From a virus (lineage: Duplodnaviria; Caudoviricetes): 64,000 nt of DNA. Location of the stretch: positions 32,001-96,000 of the IMG/VR virus record IMGVR_UViG_3300031760_000005. One strand, given 5' to 3'. The position numbers were made by a program, and so were the translations under genes. Under the pieces are notes generated by a model, which saw only the letters and a list, made by a program, of their open reading frames with translations, made no database searches and was not told the DNA's origin. Each line of letters begins with the position of its first letter. Within the stretch, counting starts at the first letter, position 1. Below are positions 2,850 to 55,461 of this stretch, piece after piece.

Positions 2850-2900
2850 ATATTATTTGAAATTTGCAGAGGCTTTGCTTATTTGATGTTTAATGATAAT

Positions 2901-3386
2901 TTACATTCTTACAAGCCAGTCGGCAGCAGATGTTGCAAGAGGTGCGATAGTCTTAAATCGTACTTCATAACCCATTGACTCTACCCAACCTTTAGCTGTT
3001 TGGAACACCTCATTTGACTTAAACTGAGGATTTGGGTTAATATCGATATCGATATACTTAGGTCTAGGACAACCTGCTTCAGTAAGTTCATTAGCAAGGT
3101 TAAGAGATTCCTCTACCTCTTTAAGCAAACGAACTTGACGTACTGTCTCCTTAGCAGTTCTCCAACGTCTAAAGATACAATGTGCACCGTGGCCTGGAGT
3201 ATATAATGCAATAACTGTTGAATAAGTTGTGTGTCTACCCTTGTTTTGTGAGTCGGTTCCAATGATTATGTCAATACCACCATTCTTAGAATGCTCAGCA
3301 ACATACTGCTTAACATAATCTGAAACACTTAAAAGCTTTTCACCAGTAAACTTCTTAAAATCTACGGTACCTACTGTCTTTTCCAT
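2901..3386 (-). CDS. RNase H-like YkuK/DUF458 family protein
   Basis: IIIGTDSQ, RLLKEV, IDIDIN, AAD motifs. Confidence 0.85.
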   Translation of the reverse strand: MEKTVGTVDFKKFTGEKLLSVSDYVKQYVAEHSKNGGIDIIIGTDSQNKGRHTTYSTVIALYTPGHGAHCIFRRWRTAKETVRQVRLLKEVEESLNLANELTEAGCPRPKYIDIDINPNPQFKSNEVFQTAKGWVESMGYEVRFKTIAPLATSAADWLVRM

Positions 3387-7927: not shown

Positions 7928-9613
7928 ATGATGAAATTATTTACTGTAATGCAAACGGCTTTTGATAATTTCGATAATACAGTAAGAAATTATTTAGCCA
8001 AAACTTTTAATAATTTAGGATTACAATATACTCATTCACAGATTTTTGGTGTGATATTTGATGGTATGAAAGGTATCATGCAAAATATTATGTTTTATAT
8101 TGAAGATGCTATGAATGAGCAAAACATATATACTGCTTCTCGTAAACAATCAGTATATTCATTAGCTAAAATATCTGGATATGAACCAAGTTATGGTAAC
8201 AGCGCAACTGGTACTATTATTGGTTCTATGCATATAAATAATGGATTAAATAGTAATTCTGATAAAATATATATAAAAAACCATTGTAAAATAACTAATA
8301 AAAATAATGGGCTTATTTATTCATTAAGTTTGCCTACAGATTATTATGTAATTGATATTAGTAAGCCTTTAATTACTCATATGTTTACTGTAATTCAAGG
8401 AATTTATGTACAAAATAATTATGTGACAAAAGGAATTAAATTAGAAAGTGTACATGTATCTGTTGGAGAATTATTTGATGGTAATCATATAATTGTTAAA
8501 GTTGACGGTAAAGAATATGAAAGAGTTGGTAATTTATATGATATGGCAGAAAATGGCGAACAATATATTTTAAATATTGGATTTGATAATGGTTTTGAAA
8601 TAACTTTTGGTAATGGAATATATGGTAAACAATTAACTGAAGGTCAAACTATAGAAATTGAATATTTAAAACATAGTGGTGTTATTGGTAATGTATTACC
8701 TGGTGAAGAAGCACGCTTTAAATTTAATGATTCAGGATTTGACACACTTGGTAATGAAATTAATATTAATAATTTTATAGAATTAAAAATGGATAATTGT
8801 ATATCTGGAGGAACAAATTCAGATAGTATTGGATTTATTAGAAAAATGATTGGTGCAAATTCAAGATCTTCAGTATTAGTATCTGAGGAAAACTTTAAAT
8901 TATTCTTTAAAAGATTTTCATTTATTGGGTACGTTAATTGTTGGTCTGAATCAAATTCAATGATAATTAATGTTACATGTTTAAGAAATTTTTCAAAAGA
9001 AATTAAAGATGTAGATGAATATTTTAAATTGACATCAAATGATTTCTTATTAAATAATGATCAAAAAATAATGATACAAAATACTCTTGAAAATTCTAAA
9101 AAATCTTTTGCGGGTATTACTGTTAAATTTCAAGATCCAATTATTCGTAAATATGCTGCAATTTGTTACGTTAAAATAAAAAATAATTATGATAAAGATT
9201 TAGTAAAAACACAAATTAAACATATATTAGCTGAATATTTTTATAATTCATTAGAAGATACACAATTCATTTCAAAATCAGAAATAATTAAAAAAATACA
9301 TAATGAAATTGATTCAGTTATATCTATAGACATCGATTTTATTTCTCAATTAAATGAAGATGCATTTAAAAATGGTTATTACTATAAATATGAATTAATT
9401 TATAACAACTCGGTTTATAAATATGTAACTAAACGAGTAATTTATGAGCCAGATAATATGGCTGGTCTTGATGGTTATGGAAACATACAAGTAGATTCTA
9501 AACTTGAAATTCCTATACTTATGGGAGGATTTAATTATTATCCAGATAAAACATCATTAGATGGAATAAATAATAGTATAACTACAGAAGCTGTACAAAT
9601 ATACTTTATTTAA
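7928..9613 (+). CDS. baseplate wedge subunit, T4 gp6-like
   Basis: NEQNIYTA..QSVYSLAK..GY, ITFGNGIYGK, IEIEYL..G..GN, SGG..DSI..IR motifs. Confidence 0.85.
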   Translation: MMKLFTVMQTAFDNFDNTVRNYLAKTFNNLGLQYTHSQIFGVIFDGMKGIMQNIMFYIEDAMNEQNIYTASRKQSVYSLAKISGYEPSYGNSATGTIIGSMHINNGLNSNSDKIYIKNHCKITNKNNGLIYSLSLPTDYYVIDISKPLITHMFTVIQGIYVQNNYVTKGIKLESVHVSVGELFDGNHIIVKVDGKEYERVGNLYDMAENGEQYILNIGFDNGFEITFGNGIYGKQLTEGQTIEIEYLKHSGVIGNVLPGEEARFKFNDSGFDTLGNEININNFIELKMDNCISGGTNSDSIGFIRKMIGANSRSSVLVSEENFKLFFKRFSFIGYVNCWSESNSMIINVTCLRNFSKEIKDVDEYFKLTSNDFLLNNDQKIMIQNTLENSKKSFAGITVKFQDPIIRKYAAICYVKIKNNYDKDLVKTQIKHILAEYFYNSLEDTQFISKSEIIKKIHNEIDSVISIDIDFISQLNEDAFKNGYYYKYELIYNNSVYKYVTKRVIYEPDNMAGLDGYGNIQVDSKLEIPILMGGFNYYPDKTSLDGINNSITTEAVQIYFI

Positions 9614-19404: not shown

Positions 19405-21348
19405 TTATATTATTTTAATACGATCTTGTAATTCTATTGGATATTGATTTTTTGTACTATTATATAATGTTTTAAAACATGCATCTAATATATATGTTAC
19501 GCACCAATCTCCATCATAACGAACACCACGACCAATACCCTGAATAATTTCATTTGATGTATGTGAATTATACCATAAAGGATATAATTTATTACGGGCG
19601 TTTACAAGTTTATCCATAAGAGTTGGATATGGTACTTTAAGTATTATAATAAATCTGCAATCATCTCCAGGTAAATCGATACCTGTATTAAGAGTAGGAC
19701 CAACTAATATGGTATCTTGTGACATTTGATGTAATTTTACCATTGTAATTTTTTCACGAGAACCATTATATACTAGCATACGTTGTTTAATTTCTAATGG
19801 AGCATCATTATATAAGCGTTTAGCAAATTCATATGAACCAGTTTGTATCATTCCTTTTTGTTCTTTAAATTTAGTTGAACAAATGGAATAAATAACTGTT
19901 TTTAAATGTCTAAATGATATTTCTCGTTCATTAAAAGACATCTTAAATTTATTAAAGAAATATATAGGGGATTCATTAAAATCAAATGTTGAAGGAATAA
20001 CTGTCATAAATGATTTGTCAACAATAGAATTTTCATGATCATATTCATCTTTTTCTTCATAATGAAATCCCATACGTTCATCAAATGCTGCTTTAGTTCC
20101 TACAGTGGCTGACAACATAACTTTATATGGAGCTTTACGTAATAAGAAATACCAAACTATATAATCTTCTTTAGTACACTTAAATGCCACAGATATATGC
20201 TTATCATCATTCGCTATTGTAATATCTTTTAATAAATAATCTACACCAGTAACATCAATCGCTGTAATAAAATCATTCCAATGACATAAATAATTTTCAT
20301 GCCATGAAGCTATTTTAAACATAGCTATATCATCTTTTGATAAATGCTCATGATTCATTTTTTTACTTGAAATTCTGCTTTTAATATCTTCACAACGTTT
20401 TGTAAAAGCAGTTAGTATTTCAAAATACTTTTTTAAATCATTTATGTCTTCATCTTTACGGGATTCTGGTGTTGTCCATGTTTTCCAGAATTTTTGTAAC
20501 TCTTCTTTAAATACAGTTACATTAGGATATTTAGTATAAACTATATTTTCCGCATCATTCAACTTAAACTCATCAAATAATGATATTTGTGGATCTGTAG
20601 TACCATTATATAAAGATTCTAATTTTTCAAAATCGCTTTCAACAATTGTGGGAGCATATTGTAATTGTACTATTTCTGGTATGTTATGACATTCATCACA
20701 AAATAATACTTGATGAGGAACAAATATTGGCGAACCATGACTATCACAATTAAACTGAGGATTATTCATTATAAATAAGAATAATTGATAAGTCATTATA
20801 CAAACTTTAGCTTTTACAGCCTTTTTTCTTGCTCGTACATATTCACATGTTGCAGCACATTCATACCCATATTTTTTGCATGTTTGCCAATTAAACATAG
20901 CAGCCCATGAAAGACCCGCCATTTTACAATCAGCGTTCTTCATGTCTTCACCATTTAATTTACAAACATAATTACCTGTTTGTCCTTTAAGTGTTGCAAT
21001 ACCTGTCTTCTTATGTTTTTTTAAAAAATTTTCGTATTGCTCCCAAAGAAACAAATCAGATACTAATATATATGAAGTAATATCAAAATATTCAGCTAAT
21101 ACACCAGCAGCTATCATATTTATAAGTGATTTACCAGATCCTGTTGGCGCTTCAACTACATAATTACGATATTTATGTGTTAAAATATTTTGAATAATTG
21201 TAACAATAGTTTCTAACTGATGAGGTCTAAATTCAAATGTTTTACTAATTTTATTATTAACCCAATCTTTTATATATGTAACAATATCTTCATCGGTATA
21301 AGAAATTTCTTCTCTATAATTATAAATATCTAATTCTTTTTTATCCAT
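19405..21348 (-). CDS. DinG/YoaA (XPD/Rad3-like) SF2 helicase
   Basis: EAPTGSGKS, Cys cluster, DECH, MLSAT, GIDLPGD, QGIGRGVR. Confidence 0.9.
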   Translation of the reverse strand: MDKKELDIYNYREEISYTDEDIVTYIKDWVNNKISKTFEFRPHQLETIVTIIQNILTHKYRNYVVEAPTGSGKSLINMIAAGVLAEYFDITSYILVSDLFLWEQYENFLKKHKKTGIATLKGQTGNYVCKLNGEDMKNADCKMAGLSWAAMFNWQTCKKYGYECAATCEYVRARKKAVKAKVCIMTYQLFLFIMNNPQFNCDSHGSPIFVPHQVLFCDECHNIPEIVQLQYAPTIVESDFEKLESLYNGTTDPQISLFDEFKLNDAENIVYTKYPNVTVFKEELQKFWKTWTTPESRKDEDINDLKKYFEILTAFTKRCEDIKSRISSKKMNHEHLSKDDIAMFKIASWHENYLCHWNDFITAIDVTGVDYLLKDITIANDDKHISVAFKCTKEDYIVWYFLLRKAPYKVMLSATVGTKAAFDERMGFHYEEKDEYDHENSIVDKSFMTVIPSTFDFNESPIYFFNKFKMSFNEREISFRHLKTVIYSICSTKFKEQKGMIQTGSYEFAKRLYNDAPLEIKQRMLVYNGSREKITMVKLHQMSQDTILVGPTLNTGIDLPGDDCRFIIILKVPYPTLMDKLVNARNKLYPLWYNSHTSNEIIQGIGRGVRYDGDWCVTYILDACFKTLYNSTKNQYPIELQDRIKII

Positions 21349-21400
21349 TAATTAAACTTTTAATACTTAATATTAAAATAGAATATAATGTATAAAAATT

Positions 21401-21434
21401 AAAAGCGGAAGAAGATTTATTTCTTCTTTTGCTT
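21401..21434 (-). terminator. intrinsic terminator closing the minigene-array transcript
   Basis: Minus strand aagcaaaagaagaa/tcttcttccgctttt. Confidence 0.6.
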
Positions 21435-21439
21435 ATATG

Positions 21440-21558
21440 ATTCTCAATCAACTTGAATACTATATCGCCATGCAGAATGTCTAGTATTGATTTTTTGAAC
21501 CTTGGGAGTTTTTGTAACGTTACCGAACTTTATCCTATTAAACTCTAGATTGGGATTT
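21440..21558. ncRNA. candidate structured RNA (three-stem junction)
   Basis: tctcaatc/gattggga enclosing aatacta/tagtatt and gagttt/aaactc; GC-richer than its flanks. Confidence 0.35.
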
Positions 21559-21606
21559 TTATATTTTATTAAATTATATCTTATATGTAAAAATTATATC
21601 TTTATT

Positions 21607-21627
21607 TTAGGGTCGATCTCTAATCAT
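21607..21627 (-). CDS. minigene MIRDRP
   Basis: ATG ATT AGA GAT CGA CCC TAA. Confidence 0.45.
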   Translation of the reverse strand: MIRDRP

Positions 21628-21698
21628 CTTACTTATAATTTAAAAGTTCTACTAATTTATATTATATTAATTATCATTTTATCAAGTTTAATTATTTA

Positions 21699-21719
21699 TT
21701 AGGGTCGATCTCGTATCAT
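21699..21719 (-). CDS. minigene MIRDRP
   Basis: ATG ATA CGA GAT CGA CCC TAA; differs from the 21607 copy only at two synonymous sites. Confidence 0.45.
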   Translation of the reverse strand: MIRDRP

Positions 21720-21784
21720 ATTATATAATTTCAAAATTCTACTAATATCTTACAAATTATCATCTTATCAAGTTTAATTATTTA

Positions 21785-21805
21785 TTAAGGTCAATCTCGT
21801 ATCAT
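21785..21805 (-). pseudogene. minigene copy with CGA>TGA (MIRD*P)
   Basis: ATG ATA CGA GAT TGA CCT TAA. Confidence 0.35.
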
Positions 21806-21874
21806 ATTATCTAATTTTAAATTCTTCTAATATATCTTACAAATTATCATCTATTTCTATATCATTAATTTTAA

Positions 21875-21898
21875 TTAGGGCGGAGGTCGTACTTCCAT
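21875..21898 (-). CDS. minigene MEVRPPP
   Basis: ATG GAA GTA CGA CCT CCG CCC TAA, 11 nt after the upstream stop, A-rich start context. Confidence 0.45.
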   Translation of the reverse strand: MEVRPPP

Positions 21899-21909
21899 AA
21901 TTTTAAAAT

Positions 21910-22197
21910 TTAAAGGGTTTCTTTAGGATCAAGTGAAATATATGTTCTTACTGTCTTCTGTTTATTATGATAAATTACCGTGGTATTATTTGCACCATAG
22001 CAAATAAATTCATTAGTTTTATGACCATTTACTTCATAATACTTAGCATTATATTCATCAATCAAATTATTAAAAGTTTCTTCAGCTTTCCTTATATCAG
22101 TAAAAAGAAGAATATCATTAGCTCTATCAATTGCCATTGCATAATCAGTATTATTAGCAGTGAAGAAACTCTGAATTGTAATCTGATAGATTTTCAT
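21910..22197 (-). CDS. hypothetical early protein
   Basis: Directly below a promoter and the conserved leader. Confidence 0.75.
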   Translation of the reverse strand: MKIYQITIQSFFTANNTDYAMAIDRANDILLFTDIRKAEETFNNLIDEYNAKYYEVNGHKTNEFICYGANNTTVIYHNKQKTVRTYISLDPKETL

Positions 22198-22255
22198 TTT
22201 TGTTTGTTTGTTTGATTTACATATATAATATAGAAATTGTTTTATGAAAATTCAA
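22198..22255 (-). promoter_or_regulatory. early promoter plus conserved AAAC-repeat leader
   Basis: TTGAAT-N17-TATATT then ATATATGTAAATCAAACAAACAAAC. Confidence 0.75.
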
Positions 22256-22522: not shown

Positions 22523-22531
22523 CTTTAGTAG

Positions 22532-22597
22532 TTTTTTGTTTGTTTGATTTACATATATAATATAGAAAATGCTCGAAAAAATTCAAATTTTCGAGCA
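22532..22597 (-). promoter_or_regulatory. early promoter plus conserved leader, -35 inside a hairpin
   Basis: TTGAAT-N16-TATATT then ATATATGTAAATCAAACAAAC; tgctcgaaaa/ttttcgagca. Confidence 0.7.
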
Positions 22598-23576: not shown

Positions 23577-24329
23577 TTAACTGAAAACTTTTTTGAATGC
23601 TACATAATTTCCATTACCATTATCAGGAATTGCAAAAATAACTTTTTCAAATTTATAATCTTTAAGAAATTCTTTGAAAATTGATGCAACCAATGTTGGG
23701 TCATTACCAAATACTCCGCAACCAAATGCACCAAGAATTAATATTTCCTGGTCATGTACTTTCGCCATATCTAATACAAACTTTATTCTTGATTCAAGTG
23801 TTTTAAGATAAAGATTTTCATCAGAATAGTATTTTTTATATACATTATAATTTGGTGCAGGACATGTAATTACATTTACTAGTAAATCTGAATTTTCACC
23901 AAATTTAAAATAGATAGAAGGAGAAAATATACCCCAATCTTCATAAAGTCCTGTCTCAAATGAACGCTTATAGAAATTTTCATCATATTTATCTTTAAAT
24001 GCTATCAATACATTATAAAGATTACTAACATGACATAATGCTTCTTCTTGTGCAATAGCACCTTTAATAAATCCTCCACCAGGACGTGTAAAACTGGCAA
24101 AATTCAATACACATAATTGTTTAAACGGTTGCGCGTATTTTGCAATTGCATTTTCGGTAGTGGAATCAATTACTTCAATACTATTATCATAAGTAAATTT
24201 TGGATAATGATTTTTATCATATATAACTGAATTTACTCGTGAGTTTTTAGTAATTCGTGATACAAAAGTATCATTTTCCATCTCATCGAAATGCTTTTCA
24301 GCAATTATTCTTCTTTCTTCTTTTGTCAT
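23577..24329 (-). CDS. bacterial-type PARG macrodomain (TIGR02452/DUF2263)
   Basis: VLNFAS..PGGGF..GAIAQEEALC, ITCPAPN, LGAFGCGVFGN. Confidence 0.92.
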   Translation of the reverse strand: MTKEERRIIAEKHFDEMENDTFVSRITKNSRVNSVIYDKNHYPKFTYDNSIEVIDSTTENAIAKYAQPFKQLCVLNFASFTRPGGGFIKGAIAQEEALCHVSNLYNVLIAFKDKYDENFYKRSFETGLYEDWGIFSPSIYFKFGENSDLLVNVITCPAPNYNVYKKYYSDENLYLKTLESRIKFVLDMAKVHDQEILILGAFGCGVFGNDPTLVASIFKEFLKDYKFEKVIFAIPDNGNGNYVAFKKVFS

Positions 24330-35003: not shown

Positions 35004-35060
35004 ATTATTGTTTGTTTTGATTTACATATTTAATATAGAAACGTTATGGGAAAAATTCAA
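35004..35060 (-). promoter_or_regulatory. early promoter plus conserved leader
   Basis: TTGAAT-N17-TATATT then AAATATGTAAATCAAAACAAAC. Confidence 0.75.
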
Positions 35061-53835: not shown

Positions 53836-55461
53836 ATGAAAAATATATCTCAATGTATATTTGAAGCTTCTGGTAAGCCTTCAGATCTTAAGAAATATAA
53901 AAGAACAGAACGTAAAGAGACTGTTCATTTTAGGGGCAGTGATATGTATGACTTAAAAGATCCAGGATATGATGATGAGTTTTCATATTTTGACGGTTCA
54001 GGTAATGGTTATATAAAAGATAAACAAGGTCACGTATATGATGTTGTTGCAACTGATAGAGCAGGAGATGCTGGTTACATTGCTGGCGGTGCGCATGACT
54101 ATTATGTAACTATTAAGAAAGCTAATGGTACAGATGATTTCCATGTTCATGGTTGGATTGCTATTATGTCAAAGGGTAGTAATACAGGATGTATAGAAGA
54201 TATTAAAGCAGGTCACTATCTTGAAGATTATATTGCTAAATATTGGAATGACTGGGATGATAAAGATGGTAAGTTCAAAGAATTAGCAGAAAAAGGAGAC
54301 AAGAATGCTAAAGCTTATGATGATCAAAAAGCAGAAAAAATCCAAAATAAAAAAGTAGAATTTGATACAAGATACATCACTATTCCGGAAAGAATTTCAT
54401 GGGAAATTATTGATGGTAATTTTAACATTAATAATCTAAATCTTACAAGTGGTTCCATAAAAGAACTTGAAAATAAACGTTCTGAATGGCTCAGTAAAAA
54501 TCGTTTAAAATCTTGGGAAGCGGAAGATAATCCAGAATTTGCAAAAATGAAAGAAGAAATTTCTGCAAAGTCTAAAGAACTAAAAGAAACTATTATGGAT
54601 GTACTAAAACCAGTACTTATTGATAGATTACAGAAAGTATTTAAAACTAAAGATTTGAAATCACTTTCAGGTTTAACAGGTTCATTTGTATATGAACATA
54701 AACTTGCTAAAGGAAAAACTTTTGGTTATATAAGACTTGCTATAGATACAAAGAAAAAAGAATTTGTTTTTAAAGATGAAGTTAACTACAAAATAGTTGA
54801 TAGTGATATTGAATTACAGCTTAATGATAATATAGCTGTCTTTAGAGATAGAGCTTCTGATAAAATGCTTGAGTTATTCAAGAAAGTTTCTGATGCATGG
54901 AAAAAGGCTAATGGAAGAAAACAAAGTGAATATGTAAAAGACCATTGGGAGAAGATTTATCATGATTCGGCTGGTGGTTATATTTATGGTAACCATTCAA
55001 AGACAAAAGGACAAGCTAAAGAAGAAGCTAAACAAGATTTTGAAAAAATAGTTAAGGATCATGATTTTAGTAATATTTCAAAAAATAGATTTGATTATTC
55101 ATTAGCATTAGTACAAGTTTATGTTGAAGGCGATATGGAACCTGATGCAGAACCAGTAGAAAAACCACTTGAAAATCCAGAACCAAAAGAAAAGAAGGAA
55201 CGTGGTAAAGATACAAAAATGAGTAAAGGTGCCAATGCTGCAGCTTATGATAAGATGAAAGCATGGCATGAAGGTACTCGTAAGCAAAATCTTTCAAATT
55301 GTTCTGACGCTAAACTTAAAATGAATTATAAAGTTTGTAAAGAACTTGGTTATGAAGCCGAAATGAAGCAAATTGAGGCAGAAGCTAAAAAACGTGATAT
55401 CGTTCTTGAAAGCATTTCATTGAATGATATTGTTTTAGCTGATAATGAAATTGATTTATAA
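53836..55461 (+). CDS. large charged putative internal head protein
   Basis: N-terminus MKNISQCIFE-A; K/E-rich; VLES near the C-terminus. Confidence 0.65.
   Translation: MKNISQCIFEASGKPSDLKKYKRTERKETVHFRGSDMYDLKDPGYDDEFSYFDGSGNGYIKDKQGHVYDVVATDRAGDAGYIAGGAHDYYVTIKKANGTDDFHVHGWIAIMSKGSNTGCIEDIKAGHYLEDYIAKYWNDWDDKDGKFKELAEKGDKNAKAYDDQKAEKIQNKKVEFDTRYITIPERISWEIIDGNFNINNLNLTSGSIKELENKRSEWLSKNRLKSWEAEDNPEFAKMKEEISAKSKELKETIMDVLKPVLIDRLQKVFKTKDLKSLSGLTGSFVYEHKLAKGKTFGYIRLAIDTKKKEFVFKDEVNYKIVDSDIELQLNDNIAVFRDRASDKMLELFKKVSDAWKKANGRKQSEYVKDHWEKIYHDSAGGYIYGNHSKTKGQAKEEAKQDFEKIVKDHDFSNISKNRFDYSLALVQVYVEGDMEPDAEPVEKPLENPEPKEKKERGKDTKMSKGANAAAYDKMKAWHEGTRKQNLSNCSDAKLKMNYKVCKELGYEAEMKQIEAEAKKRDIVLESISLNDIVLADNEIDL

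What the first reader, a model, noticed from the sequence alone, without database searches (positions are those of the whole stretch)
21600..21900. Tandem array of Pro-stop minigenes (MIRDRP, MEVRPPP): candidate ribosome-stalling or tRNA-sequestering system
Seen: four minus-strand units spaced 92, 86 and 90 bp, in which the GC-rich part reads ATG...CC(C/T) TAA. They are MEVRPPP* (21875-21898), MIRD*P* (21785-21805, CGA>TGA), MIRDRP* (21699-21719) and MIRDRP* (21607-21627). The two intact MIRDRP copies differ only synonymously (ATA/ATT, CGA/AGA) while their spacers carry indels, which hints at selection on the peptide. GC-rich codons CGA, CCC and CCG stand out in this AT-rich DNA. The array follows an early promoter and one ORF, and ends in a structured segment and a terminator. 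Known: C-terminal Pro or Pro-Pro before a stop impairs termination; PPP needs EF-P; RAPP/RAGP-type motifs arrest ribosomes; lambda bar minigenes starting AUG AUA deplete tRNA by peptidyl-tRNA drop-off. Inference: an early-expressed ribosome/tRNA sponge or translational sensor spaced so that several ribosomes load independently. Alternative: protein-binding iterons (GGGTCGATCTC) such as an origin beside the helicase. Two synonymous changes are a small sample.
Basis: partly seen in the sequence, partly recalled or inferred. Interest (0 to 1): 0.82.

Follow-up and report, generated by a model that had tools for sequence, protein, structure and literature searches.

The report
Conserved tiny proline ORFs in megaphages
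The repeat array is real, and its 6-10 codon open reading frames are conserved as peptides in several distantly related giant rumen/gut phages, next to a previously undescribed structured RNA; so they are probably translated, most likely as ribosome-pausing elements, although their function is untested.

Summary
There are four minus-strand micro-ORFs: MEVRPPP, a broken MIRD-stop, and MIRDRP twice. They lie in a 93/86/92-bp tandem repeat between a 95-aa ORF and a terminator, upstream of a DinG-like helicase, in a 25.9% GC fragment of a Lak-related megaphage.

Comparative data support translation. A sister strain has copy 2 intact. Six further megaphage lineages (26-40% GC) carry the same peptide classes: [K/R]PPP(x); M[A/V]RD[R/G]P(x); M(K)I(KS)RD[R/K/S][P/T]. 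All have an ATG, an in-frame stop, in-frame indels and many synonymous codon swaps.

In those lineages the micro-ORFs are interleaved with a structured RNA that has strong covariation and no Rfam match. The unit ends at a terminator, and the gene downstream varies.

- Pro-stop is not conserved.
- Synonymous swaps change the tRNA isoacceptor, which argues against a tRNA sponge.
- The triplication is specific to this lineage.

The origin/iteron alternative fails.

My best reading is that these are cis-acting ribosome-pausing micro-ORFs inside a phage non-coding RNA operon. The mechanism is inferred, not shown.

Another first-stage note on this window had already flagged the structured segment; no report on other DNA was found.

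The parts
22198..22240 (-). Promoter-like motif plus A/C-rich 5' leader cassette in front of the 95-aa ORF. A near-identical copy lies at about 22523-22571, and a third at about 35004-35045.
   Evidence: Direct repeat D3, 95% identical. The CTATATT(A/T) motif lies 28-45 nt upstream of most operon starts. The same cassette directly precedes the PPP micro-ORF in L169 and the ORF95 homologue in L200.
21910..22197 (-). ORF95, a 95-aa protein of unknown function, co-transcribed upstream of the array.
   Evidence: Homologues at 63-97% identity. In the 376-kb relative (L200) it is likewise followed by a PPP micro-ORF. AF2 pLDDT 85, no PDB fold match, no Pfam or PHROG family.
21875..21898 (-). Micro-ORF 1, MEVRPPP-stop (class [K/R]PPP).
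   Evidence: Identical in the sister strain. Counterparts with PPP encoded by different Pro codons occur in L169, L187 and L200.
21785..21805 (-). Micro-ORF 2, MIRD-TGA: a broken copy carrying two C-to-T changes.
   Evidence: The sister strain L155 has the intact MIRDRP here, ending in TAG.
21699..21719 (-). Micro-ORF 3, MIRDRP-stop.
   Evidence: Identical in L155.
21607..21627 (-). Micro-ORF 4, MIRDRP-stop, with synonymous ATT and AGA. It lies 49 nt upstream of the structured RNA.
   Evidence: Identical in L167, although the spacer after it carries many changes.
21607..21852 (-). Tandem repeat (period about 86-93 bp) that amplified the MIRDRP unit together with its AT-rich spacer.
   Evidence: TRF score 325; families D1, D2 and D8. 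Other lineages have one copy of each class.
21422..21562 (-). Conserved structured RNA. Domain A has helix P1 enclosing an invariant loop. Domain B has nested helices P4, P3 and P2.
   Evidence: Covariance model R1 scores 152.9 bits here and finds an untrained copy in L194 at E=4e-12. 91% of cells are paired against 74% in shuffles, and 16 pairs carry double changes. No Rfam family matches.
21400..21432 (-). Intrinsic terminator closing the unit.
   Evidence: Stem-loop followed by a U-tract in the fold. The stem pairs fully in L167. Terminators occupy the same position in L169, L187, L194, L200 and L191.
19405..21348 (-). DinG/Rad3-like helicase with its own promoter-like motif. It is a neighbour, not part of the unit.
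   Evidence: PHROG 2488 and Pfam Helicase_C_2/ResIII. The gene downstream of the module differs in L194, L200 and L190.

Best explanation
The array belongs to a self-contained, terminator-closed transcription unit found in a subset of Lak-related rumen/gut megaphages. The unit holds translated micro-ORFs of 6-10 codons, in three peptide classes rich in Arg and Pro, interleaved with domains of a conserved structured non-coding RNA. In this phage the unit reads: ORF95, one PPP micro-ORF, a local triplication of the MIRDRP micro-ORF (one copy now dead), one RNA element, then a terminator.

The most likely mechanism is as follows. Ribosomes initiate on these ORFs and pause at PPP (an EF-P-dependent motif) or at R-D-R-P. 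Ribosome occupancy then acts in cis on the fate of the adjacent RNA, that is, its folding, processing, stability or termination. The unit would thereby report the host's translation state.

Shown: the peptide classes recur across seven lineages with intact ATG, frame and nearby stop, as does the RNA structure, and the module is autonomous. Inferred: that the ORFs are translated, that ribosomes pause, and that pausing acts in cis on the RNA.
For: 1. Peptide-level conservation. [K/R]PPP, M[A/V]RD[R/G]P and M(K)I(KS)RD[R/K/S][P/T] micro-ORFs occur in the window, L155/L167, L169, L187, L194, L200, L191 and L190/L206.
2. Codon-level signature.
   - The three Pro codons of PPP vary only at third positions in four lineages.
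   - Within RDRP, the variation among intact copies is C/A at position 1, T/C at 6, A/G/C at 9 and C/T/G at 12, all synonymous.
   - TCG/TCT is synonymous in the MKIRDST pair, although it breaks the nucleotide core.
   - Four length changes between the ATG and the motif are all multiples of 3.
3. Strain comparison. There are 0/66 differences in micro-ORFs 1, 3 and 4, against 29/326 in the spacers.
4. Translation context.
   - In L169 the PPP ORF sits exactly where a first cistron sits behind the standard promoter/leader cassette.
   - In the window and in L200 it starts 11 and 3 nt after the ORF95 stop.
   - The start contexts of copies 1-3 fall within the range of true starts.
5. The motif ATG-NNN-R-D-R-P is absent from 1.09 Mb of Lak-C1 and Lak-B6 and from three relative fragments.
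6. The adjacent RNA is structured and conserved, and a terminator closes the unit in every lineage.
7. From established knowledge: PPP needs EF-P, and Arg...Pro motifs arrest ribosomes (RAPP peptides; PMC10951233 and PMC7897499, seen).
Against: - There are no expression or ribosome data.
- Part of the codon evidence is biased. The class-2 hits in L190, L191 and L194 were found with a pattern that fixed the non-synonymous positions.
- When all copies, including variants, are counted, roughly 10 changes are synonymous and about 7 non-synonymous. Constraint is therefore moderate, and the fifth residue varies (R/G/K/S).
- Copy 2 in the window is broken, and copy 4 has a poor start context.
- Spurious ATGs in the spacers score as well as the real ones.
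- No pairing between a micro-ORF and the RNA is conserved, so no attenuator-like switch can be drawn.
- The gene downstream varies, so there is no obvious regulated target.
- RDRP is not a known arrest motif.
Confidence: 0.45

Rival explanations
1. A trans-acting sponge. The highly expressed minigenes would tie up ribosomes, peptidyl-tRNA hydrolase, EF-P, rescue factors or particular tRNAs through stalling and peptidyl-tRNA drop-off, as part of host takeover.
For: - The ORFs are very short and rich in Pro and Arg, and they sit behind a strong-looking promoter cassette.
- This lineage has amplified the MIRDRP unit.
- Minigenes and early AGA codons are known to sequester tRNA (PMC2490762, seen).
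- The window copies start AUG AUA, like the lambda bar minigenes (from my own knowledge).
Against: - Codon identity is not conserved while amino-acid identity is. Arg is written AGA, CGA, CGG or CGC and Pro uses all four codons, so different tRNAs are used.
- The last sense codon varies (P, T, Q, N, I, K, G, V, Y).
- The other lineages have only one copy per class.
- One of the three amplified copies is already dead in the window.
Confidence: 0.15
2. The released 6-10 residue peptides are themselves the product, for example an inhibitor of a host factor, a signal, or a precursor that is modified like the 7-codon mccA gene.
For: The amino-acid sequence, rather than the codons, is conserved. Directly translated heptapeptide genes exist (mccA; from my own knowledge). 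Several of the peptides end in Asn.
Against: - The C-terminal residue and the peptide length vary between lineages.
- No modifying enzyme or exporter is linked to the module, and the neighbouring genes vary.
- The constant association with RNA domains and a terminator is left unexplained.
Confidence: 0.12
3. The elements are not translated. The conserved cores would be protein-binding DNA sites (iterons of an origin, or operator or partition sites) or an RNA-protein recognition motif.
For: GC-rich cores repeat at about 8 helical turns beside a helicase gene. A weak inverted core-like copy lies at 21435-21452 (13/18 matches, about 1% local chance). The RNA of the array is unstructured (z=+0.11).
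Against: - There is no GC-skew switch here; skew follows gene strand and turns at about 6 and 16 kb.
- In L200, L194 and L190 the module is not next to the helicase.
- Most helicase relatives lack the array.
- The other lineages have single, non-repeated copies of different classes.
- Among intact copies the variation falls on synonymous positions, and indels are in frame.
- The TCG/TCT change breaks the nucleotide core but keeps Ser.
Confidence: 0.1
4. The extra copies in this window are a neutral slippage or unequal-crossover duplication of one functional unit, with no significance as an array.
For: The triplication is seen only in this species. Copy 2 has a nonsense change in the window. 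A 30-nt stretch after copy 2 is replaced between the two strains, consistent with ongoing recombination.
Against: Copies 3 and 4 are identical between strains while the spacers diverge. This rival concerns copy number only and is compatible with the main explanation.
Confidence: 0.5

Closest known systems
RAPP/RAGP-type ribosome arrest peptides (ApdA, ApdP, SecM; PMC7897499, PMC10951233)
   Same: An Arg followed shortly by Pro near the C-terminus. The amino-acid sequence rather than the codon sequence is conserved. The ORF is placed upstream of RNA structure.
   Different: - The known peptides are tens of residues long.
- They end in R-A-P-P, R-G-P-P or R-A-G-P.
- They lie upstream of Sec/YidC genes whose ribosome-binding site they unmask.
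- Here the ORFs have 6-10 codons, the motif is R-D-R-P or PPP, a terminator follows, and the downstream gene varies.
Polyproline (EF-P-dependent) pause sites used as regulatory leaders, such as Pro-codon leaders of the mgt operons (from my own knowledge)
   Same: PPP follows a basic residue inside a very short leader-like ORF placed before structured RNA.
   Different: No regulated downstream ORF and no alternative hairpins were identified. The host is probably a Bacteroidota, and this system is not characterised there.
Lambda bar minigenes and other toxic minigenes (PMC2490762 for the tRNA-sequestering mechanism)
   Same: They are phage-encoded, ultra-short ORFs, and the window copies begin AUG AUA.
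   Different: The bar minigenes are two-codon ORFs whose effect depends on one particular tRNA. Here tRNA usage is not conserved but the peptide is.
Short drug-responsive leader ORFs with an Arg/Lys-X-Arg/Lys motif, such as the erm leaders (from my own knowledge)
   Same: R-D-R, K-I-R and K-N-K fit a basic-X-basic pattern within a leader of only a few codons.
   Different: No resistance gene or other regulated ORF follows, and dependence on a ligand is pure conjecture.
Iteron-type replication origins
   Same: Direct repeats with a GC-rich core lie in AT-rich DNA beside a replication gene.
   Different: Homologues are single-copy, conserved in frame, not linked to the helicase, and not at a skew switch.

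Membership tests
RAPP-like arrest peptides | A C-terminal R-A/G-P-P or R-A-G-P motif | tested here: not met
   The motifs found are R-D-R-P, R-D-G-P and [K/R]-P-P-P. None is RAPP or RGPP.
RAPP-like arrest peptides | Located upstream of a gene that it regulates, with a structure that hides that gene's start | tested here: not met
   A terminator closes the unit, and the next gene differs between lineages.
RAPP-like arrest peptides | Nascent-chain-dependent elongation arrest | not testable with these tools
   Needs toeprinting or Ribo-seq.
bar-type toxic minigenes / tRNA sponge | The effect depends on a specific tRNA, so the codon rather than the residue is conserved | tested here: not met
   Arg is written AGA, CGA, CGG or CGC, Pro uses all four codons, and the last sense codon varies.
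Leader-peptide transcription attenuator | A leader ORF followed by an intrinsic terminator | tested here: met
   Micro-ORF 4 lies about 175 nt upstream of the terminator at 21400-21432. The same order is seen in five other lineages.
Leader-peptide transcription attenuator | Conserved alternative pairing that links the leader to the terminator or antiterminator | tested here: not met
   The duplex between the micro-ORF and the RNA tail is significant only in the window (p about 0.01). It is not significant in L169, L187 or L200.
Leader-peptide transcription attenuator | A constant regulated gene downstream | tested here: not met
   The downstream gene is the helicase in the window, L169 and L187. 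It is another ORF in L200, an opposite-strand gene in L194 and a tRNA-Leu in L190.
Iteron origin of replication | Repeated DNA core conserved regardless of reading frame | tested here: not met
   The frame, ATG and stop are conserved, and the other lineages have single copies.
Iteron origin of replication | Strand-composition switch at the site | tested here: not met
   GC skew stays negative from 16 to 54 kb. Skew here tracks transcription, so this is a weak test.
Any Rfam RNA family (for the structured segment) | A score at or near a family's gathering threshold | tested here: not met
   No hit was found in the window or in nine related loci, apart from one tRNA.

The most novel reading that the evidence does not exclude
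Giant phages of Bacteroidota encode a dedicated set of ultra-short (6-10 residue) nascent peptides that arrest or reprogram host ribosomes. These peptides are wired to a new structured RNA, and the whole unit acts as a phage-borne sensor or effector of host translation state (EF-P or peptidyl-transferase capacity). The peptide-ribosome interaction would be of a kind not yet described: an R-D-R-P arrest motif that works with almost no nascent chain in the tunnel.
Probability: 0.2. Interest if true: 0.85.

Novelty: new variant of a known kind. Interest (0 to 1): 0.66.

Why it matters
Functional ORFs of 6-10 codons are almost never annotated, and very few are known. This case offers a family with comparative support, in uncultured megaphages whose early biology is unknown.

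If the peptides pause ribosomes, they would extend arrest-peptide biology in three directions: to phages, to hosts without Shine-Dalgarno-led initiation, and to minimal nascent chains.

The adjacent RNA is a new structured motif with good covariation and would merit a family of its own.

The work also gives short, concrete sequences for toeprinting and reporter assays.

Tried and rejected
- **Searches that found nothing useful.**
  - BLAST of the region against GenBank phages found nothing.
  - Exact and degenerate core patterns found only chance hits, or none, in IMG/VR. In JGI metagenomes they gave 24 single chance-level hits.
  - Two of those hits (L123, L129) have a Shine-Dalgarno sequence before a MIRDRP ORF. 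Their contexts are unrelated, a Firmicutes phage lysis cassette and an HTH gene, so I treat them as coincidence.
  - Patterns from domain A gave only chance hits in IMG/VR.
  - ORF95 as an anchor found only one IMG/VR relative.
- **Sigma-70-like promoters inside the units.** These were suggested by the scan. The best one, just before the structured RNA, is destroyed in the sister strain. The motif is not enriched genome-wide.
- **The array as one structured RNA.** Rejected: z=+0.11.
- **A CRISPR-like array.** Rejected, because the 'spacers' of units 2 and 3 are 88% identical.
- **Alternative genetic code.** Rejected.
- **tRNA or tmRNA.** None found.
- **MEV[K/R]HP 'micro-ORFs' in G006.** They resembled copy 1, but they are out-of-frame artefacts inside a duplicated real gene.
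- **A conserved leader-to-tail RNA switch.** Not supported outside this lineage.
- **ORF95 fold.** No informative match.
- **Start-context scoring.** It could not tell the real micro-ORFs from spurious spacer ATGs.

Full report
**Where the window comes from**

The window is bases 32001-96000 of a 157,695-bp IMG/VR virus contig with 25.9% GC, rated about 55% complete. Its DinG/Rad3-like helicase (19405-21348, minus strand) is 38% identical to those of the Prevotella Lak megaphages. It has hundreds of closer relatives in rumen and gut metagenomes. Table 11 fits the contig. TGA is a normal stop, and TAG is rare.

**Checking the observation**

The micro-ORFs are MEVRPPP (21875-21898), MIRD-TGA (21785-21805) and MIRDRP (21699-21719 and 21607-21627).
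- Spacing is 93, 86 and 92 bp.
- Tandem Repeats Finder reports period 86, 2.8 copies and 86% matches.
- The core is unique in the contig.
- All genes from 16.7 to 36 kb are on the minus strand.
- Most operon starts carry a CTATATT(A/T) motif 28-45 nt upstream. None lies inside the array.
- A 40-nt promoter-plus-leader cassette precedes ORF95 (21910-22197), and a 95%-identical copy precedes ORF83.
- A stem-loop with a U-tract at 21400-21432 closes the unit before the helicase's own promoter-like motif.
- The array is therefore most simply the 3' part of the ORF95 transcript.
- As RNA it is unstructured (z=+0.11).

**Close relatives**

- ORF95 has a 97%-identical homologue on five rumen contigs, all of which break inside the array.
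- L155 shows copy 1 identical to the window. Copy 2 is intact (MIRDRP, ending in TAG). A replaced 30-nt stretch follows it. Copy 3 is identical.
- L167, whose helicase is 99% identical, shows copy 4 identical. The spacer behind copy 4 has many changes. These include loss of the sigma-70-like -10 box that the promoter scan had flagged.
- Overall the spacers differ at 29 of 326 positions and micro-ORFs 1, 3 and 4 at 0 of 66. Micro-ORF 2 differs at 3 of 21, ORF95 at 8 of 288 and the structured segment at 4 of 123.

**Distant relatives**

Most helicase relatives have no array upstream. Two do, L169 and L187, with helicases 75% and 73% identical. Both have the same layout:

1. a [K]PPP micro-ORF (L169 1662-1688; L187 1935-1967);
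2. MIKSRDRP, with or without two more residues (L169 1744-1770; L187 2018-2050);
3. a copy of the 5' half of the window's structured segment;
4. MARDRP plus one residue (L169 1886-1909; L187 2154-2177);
5. a full copy of the structured segment;
6. terminators, then the promoter and the helicase.

Pattern scans then found four more modules in megaphage contigs:

- **L194** (435 kb, 26% GC): four micro-ORFs at 2490-2844 and the RNA at 2893-3040.
- **L200** (a 376-kb relative): the ORF95 homologue at 1048-1335, then MNNKNKPPPV, MVRDRPI and MKIRDSTF.
- **L191** (356 kb, 40% GC): MARDRP and MIRDKPTI.
- **L190/L206** (335 kb): MARDGPK, MARDRPI and MARASPK, then a tRNA-Leu.

In these four the module is not beside the helicase. 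Lak-C1, Lak-B6 and three fragmentary relatives have no ATG-x-R-D-R-P at all.

**Is it coding?**

Evidence for coding:

- Every copy has an ATG, and an in-frame stop 0-2 codons after the motif.
- Four length changes between the ATG and the motif are multiples of three.
- The three Pro codons of PPP differ only at third positions in four lineages.
- In intact RDRP copies the only variable positions are 1 (C/A), 6 (T/C), 9 (A/G/C) and 12 (C/T/G), and all these changes are synonymous.
- The MKIRDST pair differs by TCG/TCT. That change is synonymous, yet it disrupts the nucleotide core.

Caveats:

- Three class-2 hits were found with a pattern that fixed the non-synonymous positions.
- When all variant copies are counted, the tally is roughly 10 synonymous to 7 non-synonymous changes. 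This is a moderate excess over the 1:2 expected by chance.
- The fifth residue varies.
- The start-context test is compatible with translation but not diagnostic. The phage uses no Shine-Dalgarno sequence, and AT-rich spacer ATGs score as well as the micro-ORF starts.

I put translation with selection on the peptide at about 0.8.

**The structured segment**

- It has no Rfam match.
- RNAalifold and manual inspection give domain A, a helix P1 around an invariant loop. They also give domain B, nested helices P4, P3 and P2 with a loop that tolerates insertions.
- A covariance model built from four copies finds the untrained L194 copy at E=4e-12, and the A-only copies at about 1e-4 to 1e-5.
- It finds only one copy in this contig.
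- On the model-fitted alignment, 91% of cells pair, against 74% in shuffles and 31-45% when the partners are slid. Sixteen pairs carry double changes.
- The fit to the model inflates these numbers somewhat. The compensatory changes are nevertheless visible in the raw sequences.
- A related hairpin RNA stands alone upstream of the helicase or of other genes in L184, L188, L189 and L169. In L189 and L169 it follows its own promoter motif.

**Mechanism**

- The peptide is conserved while the codons, and therefore the tRNA isoacceptors, and the last sense codon are not. This argues against a bar-like tRNA sponge. It favours either a nascent-peptide effect on the ribosome or a free peptide.
- PPP is a textbook EF-P-dependent pause. 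Arg...Pro motifs underlie RAPP/RAGP arrest (PMC7897499 and PMC10951233; I saw only titles and abstracts).
- The constant interleaving with RNA domains and the closing terminator suggest a cis role.
- I could not find a conserved alternative pairing or a constant downstream target. The cis-regulatory step is therefore an inference.
- The origin/iteron alternative fails on skew, on linkage and on frame conservation.
- The triplication in this phage is specific to its lineage and partly decayed, so the 'array' aspect may be neutral.

**Verdict**

The feature is real and probably functional. It is a new variant of leader/arrest-type micro-ORFs, coupled to a new RNA motif, in an uncultured megaphage clade. 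The mechanism is unproven.

Noticed in passing
L169:2149-2300, L184:405-520, L188:123-285, L189:60-215: A stand-alone 'B-prime' hairpin RNA occurs in relatives. It has conserved loop sequences, covarying stems and an insertion-tolerant loop, and a terminator follows it. In L189 and L169 it sits right after a TCTATATT promoter motif, so it is probably an independent phage small RNA family related to domain B of the window's element.
   Followed up: partly
window 22198-22240, 22523-22571 and about 35004-35045 (minus strand): Three near-identical promoter-plus-leader cassettes (a CTATATTA motif, then a CAAA-repeat leader) sit in front of small ORFs. The same cassette precedes the PPP micro-ORF or ORF95 in relatives. 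It may mark one temporal class of genes.
   Followed up: partly
window 23577-24329 (minus strand): A 250-aa protein with a microbial-type poly(ADP-ribose) glycohydrolase catalytic domain (Pfam PF10021, E=1.6e-27). It lies in the same small-ORF block and is conserved in the sister strain.
   Followed up: no
G000:C1:8084-8244 and 9200-9262 (outside the window): Other non-coding tandem repeats, of period 33-42 with GC-containing cores, were seen in the TRF scan of the whole contig. They are better iteron candidates than the array studied here.
   Followed up: no
L155-L159, L167, L168: Metagenome contigs of sister strains end inside or right next to the array. The repeat evidently breaks short-read assemblies, so its copy number in any one contig should be treated with care.
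   Followed up: partly
L190 minus strand, oriented 243-326 (= L206 1236-1319): In a 335-kb megaphage a tRNA-Leu(UAA) gene sits where the other lineages carry the structured RNA, directly after three MAR..P micro-ORFs.
   Followed up: no
L123:2323-2343 and L129:895-915 (minus strands): Single MIRDRP-stop ORFs, each preceded by a good Shine-Dalgarno sequence, occur in unrelated low-GC metagenome contigs. One lies upstream of a Firmicutes phage holin-amidase cassette. The number of such hits is what chance predicts.
   Followed up: partly
window 55169-55264 (plus strand): A weak match to the RNA model R1 (17 bits, E about 0.4). It is probably noise.
   Followed up: no
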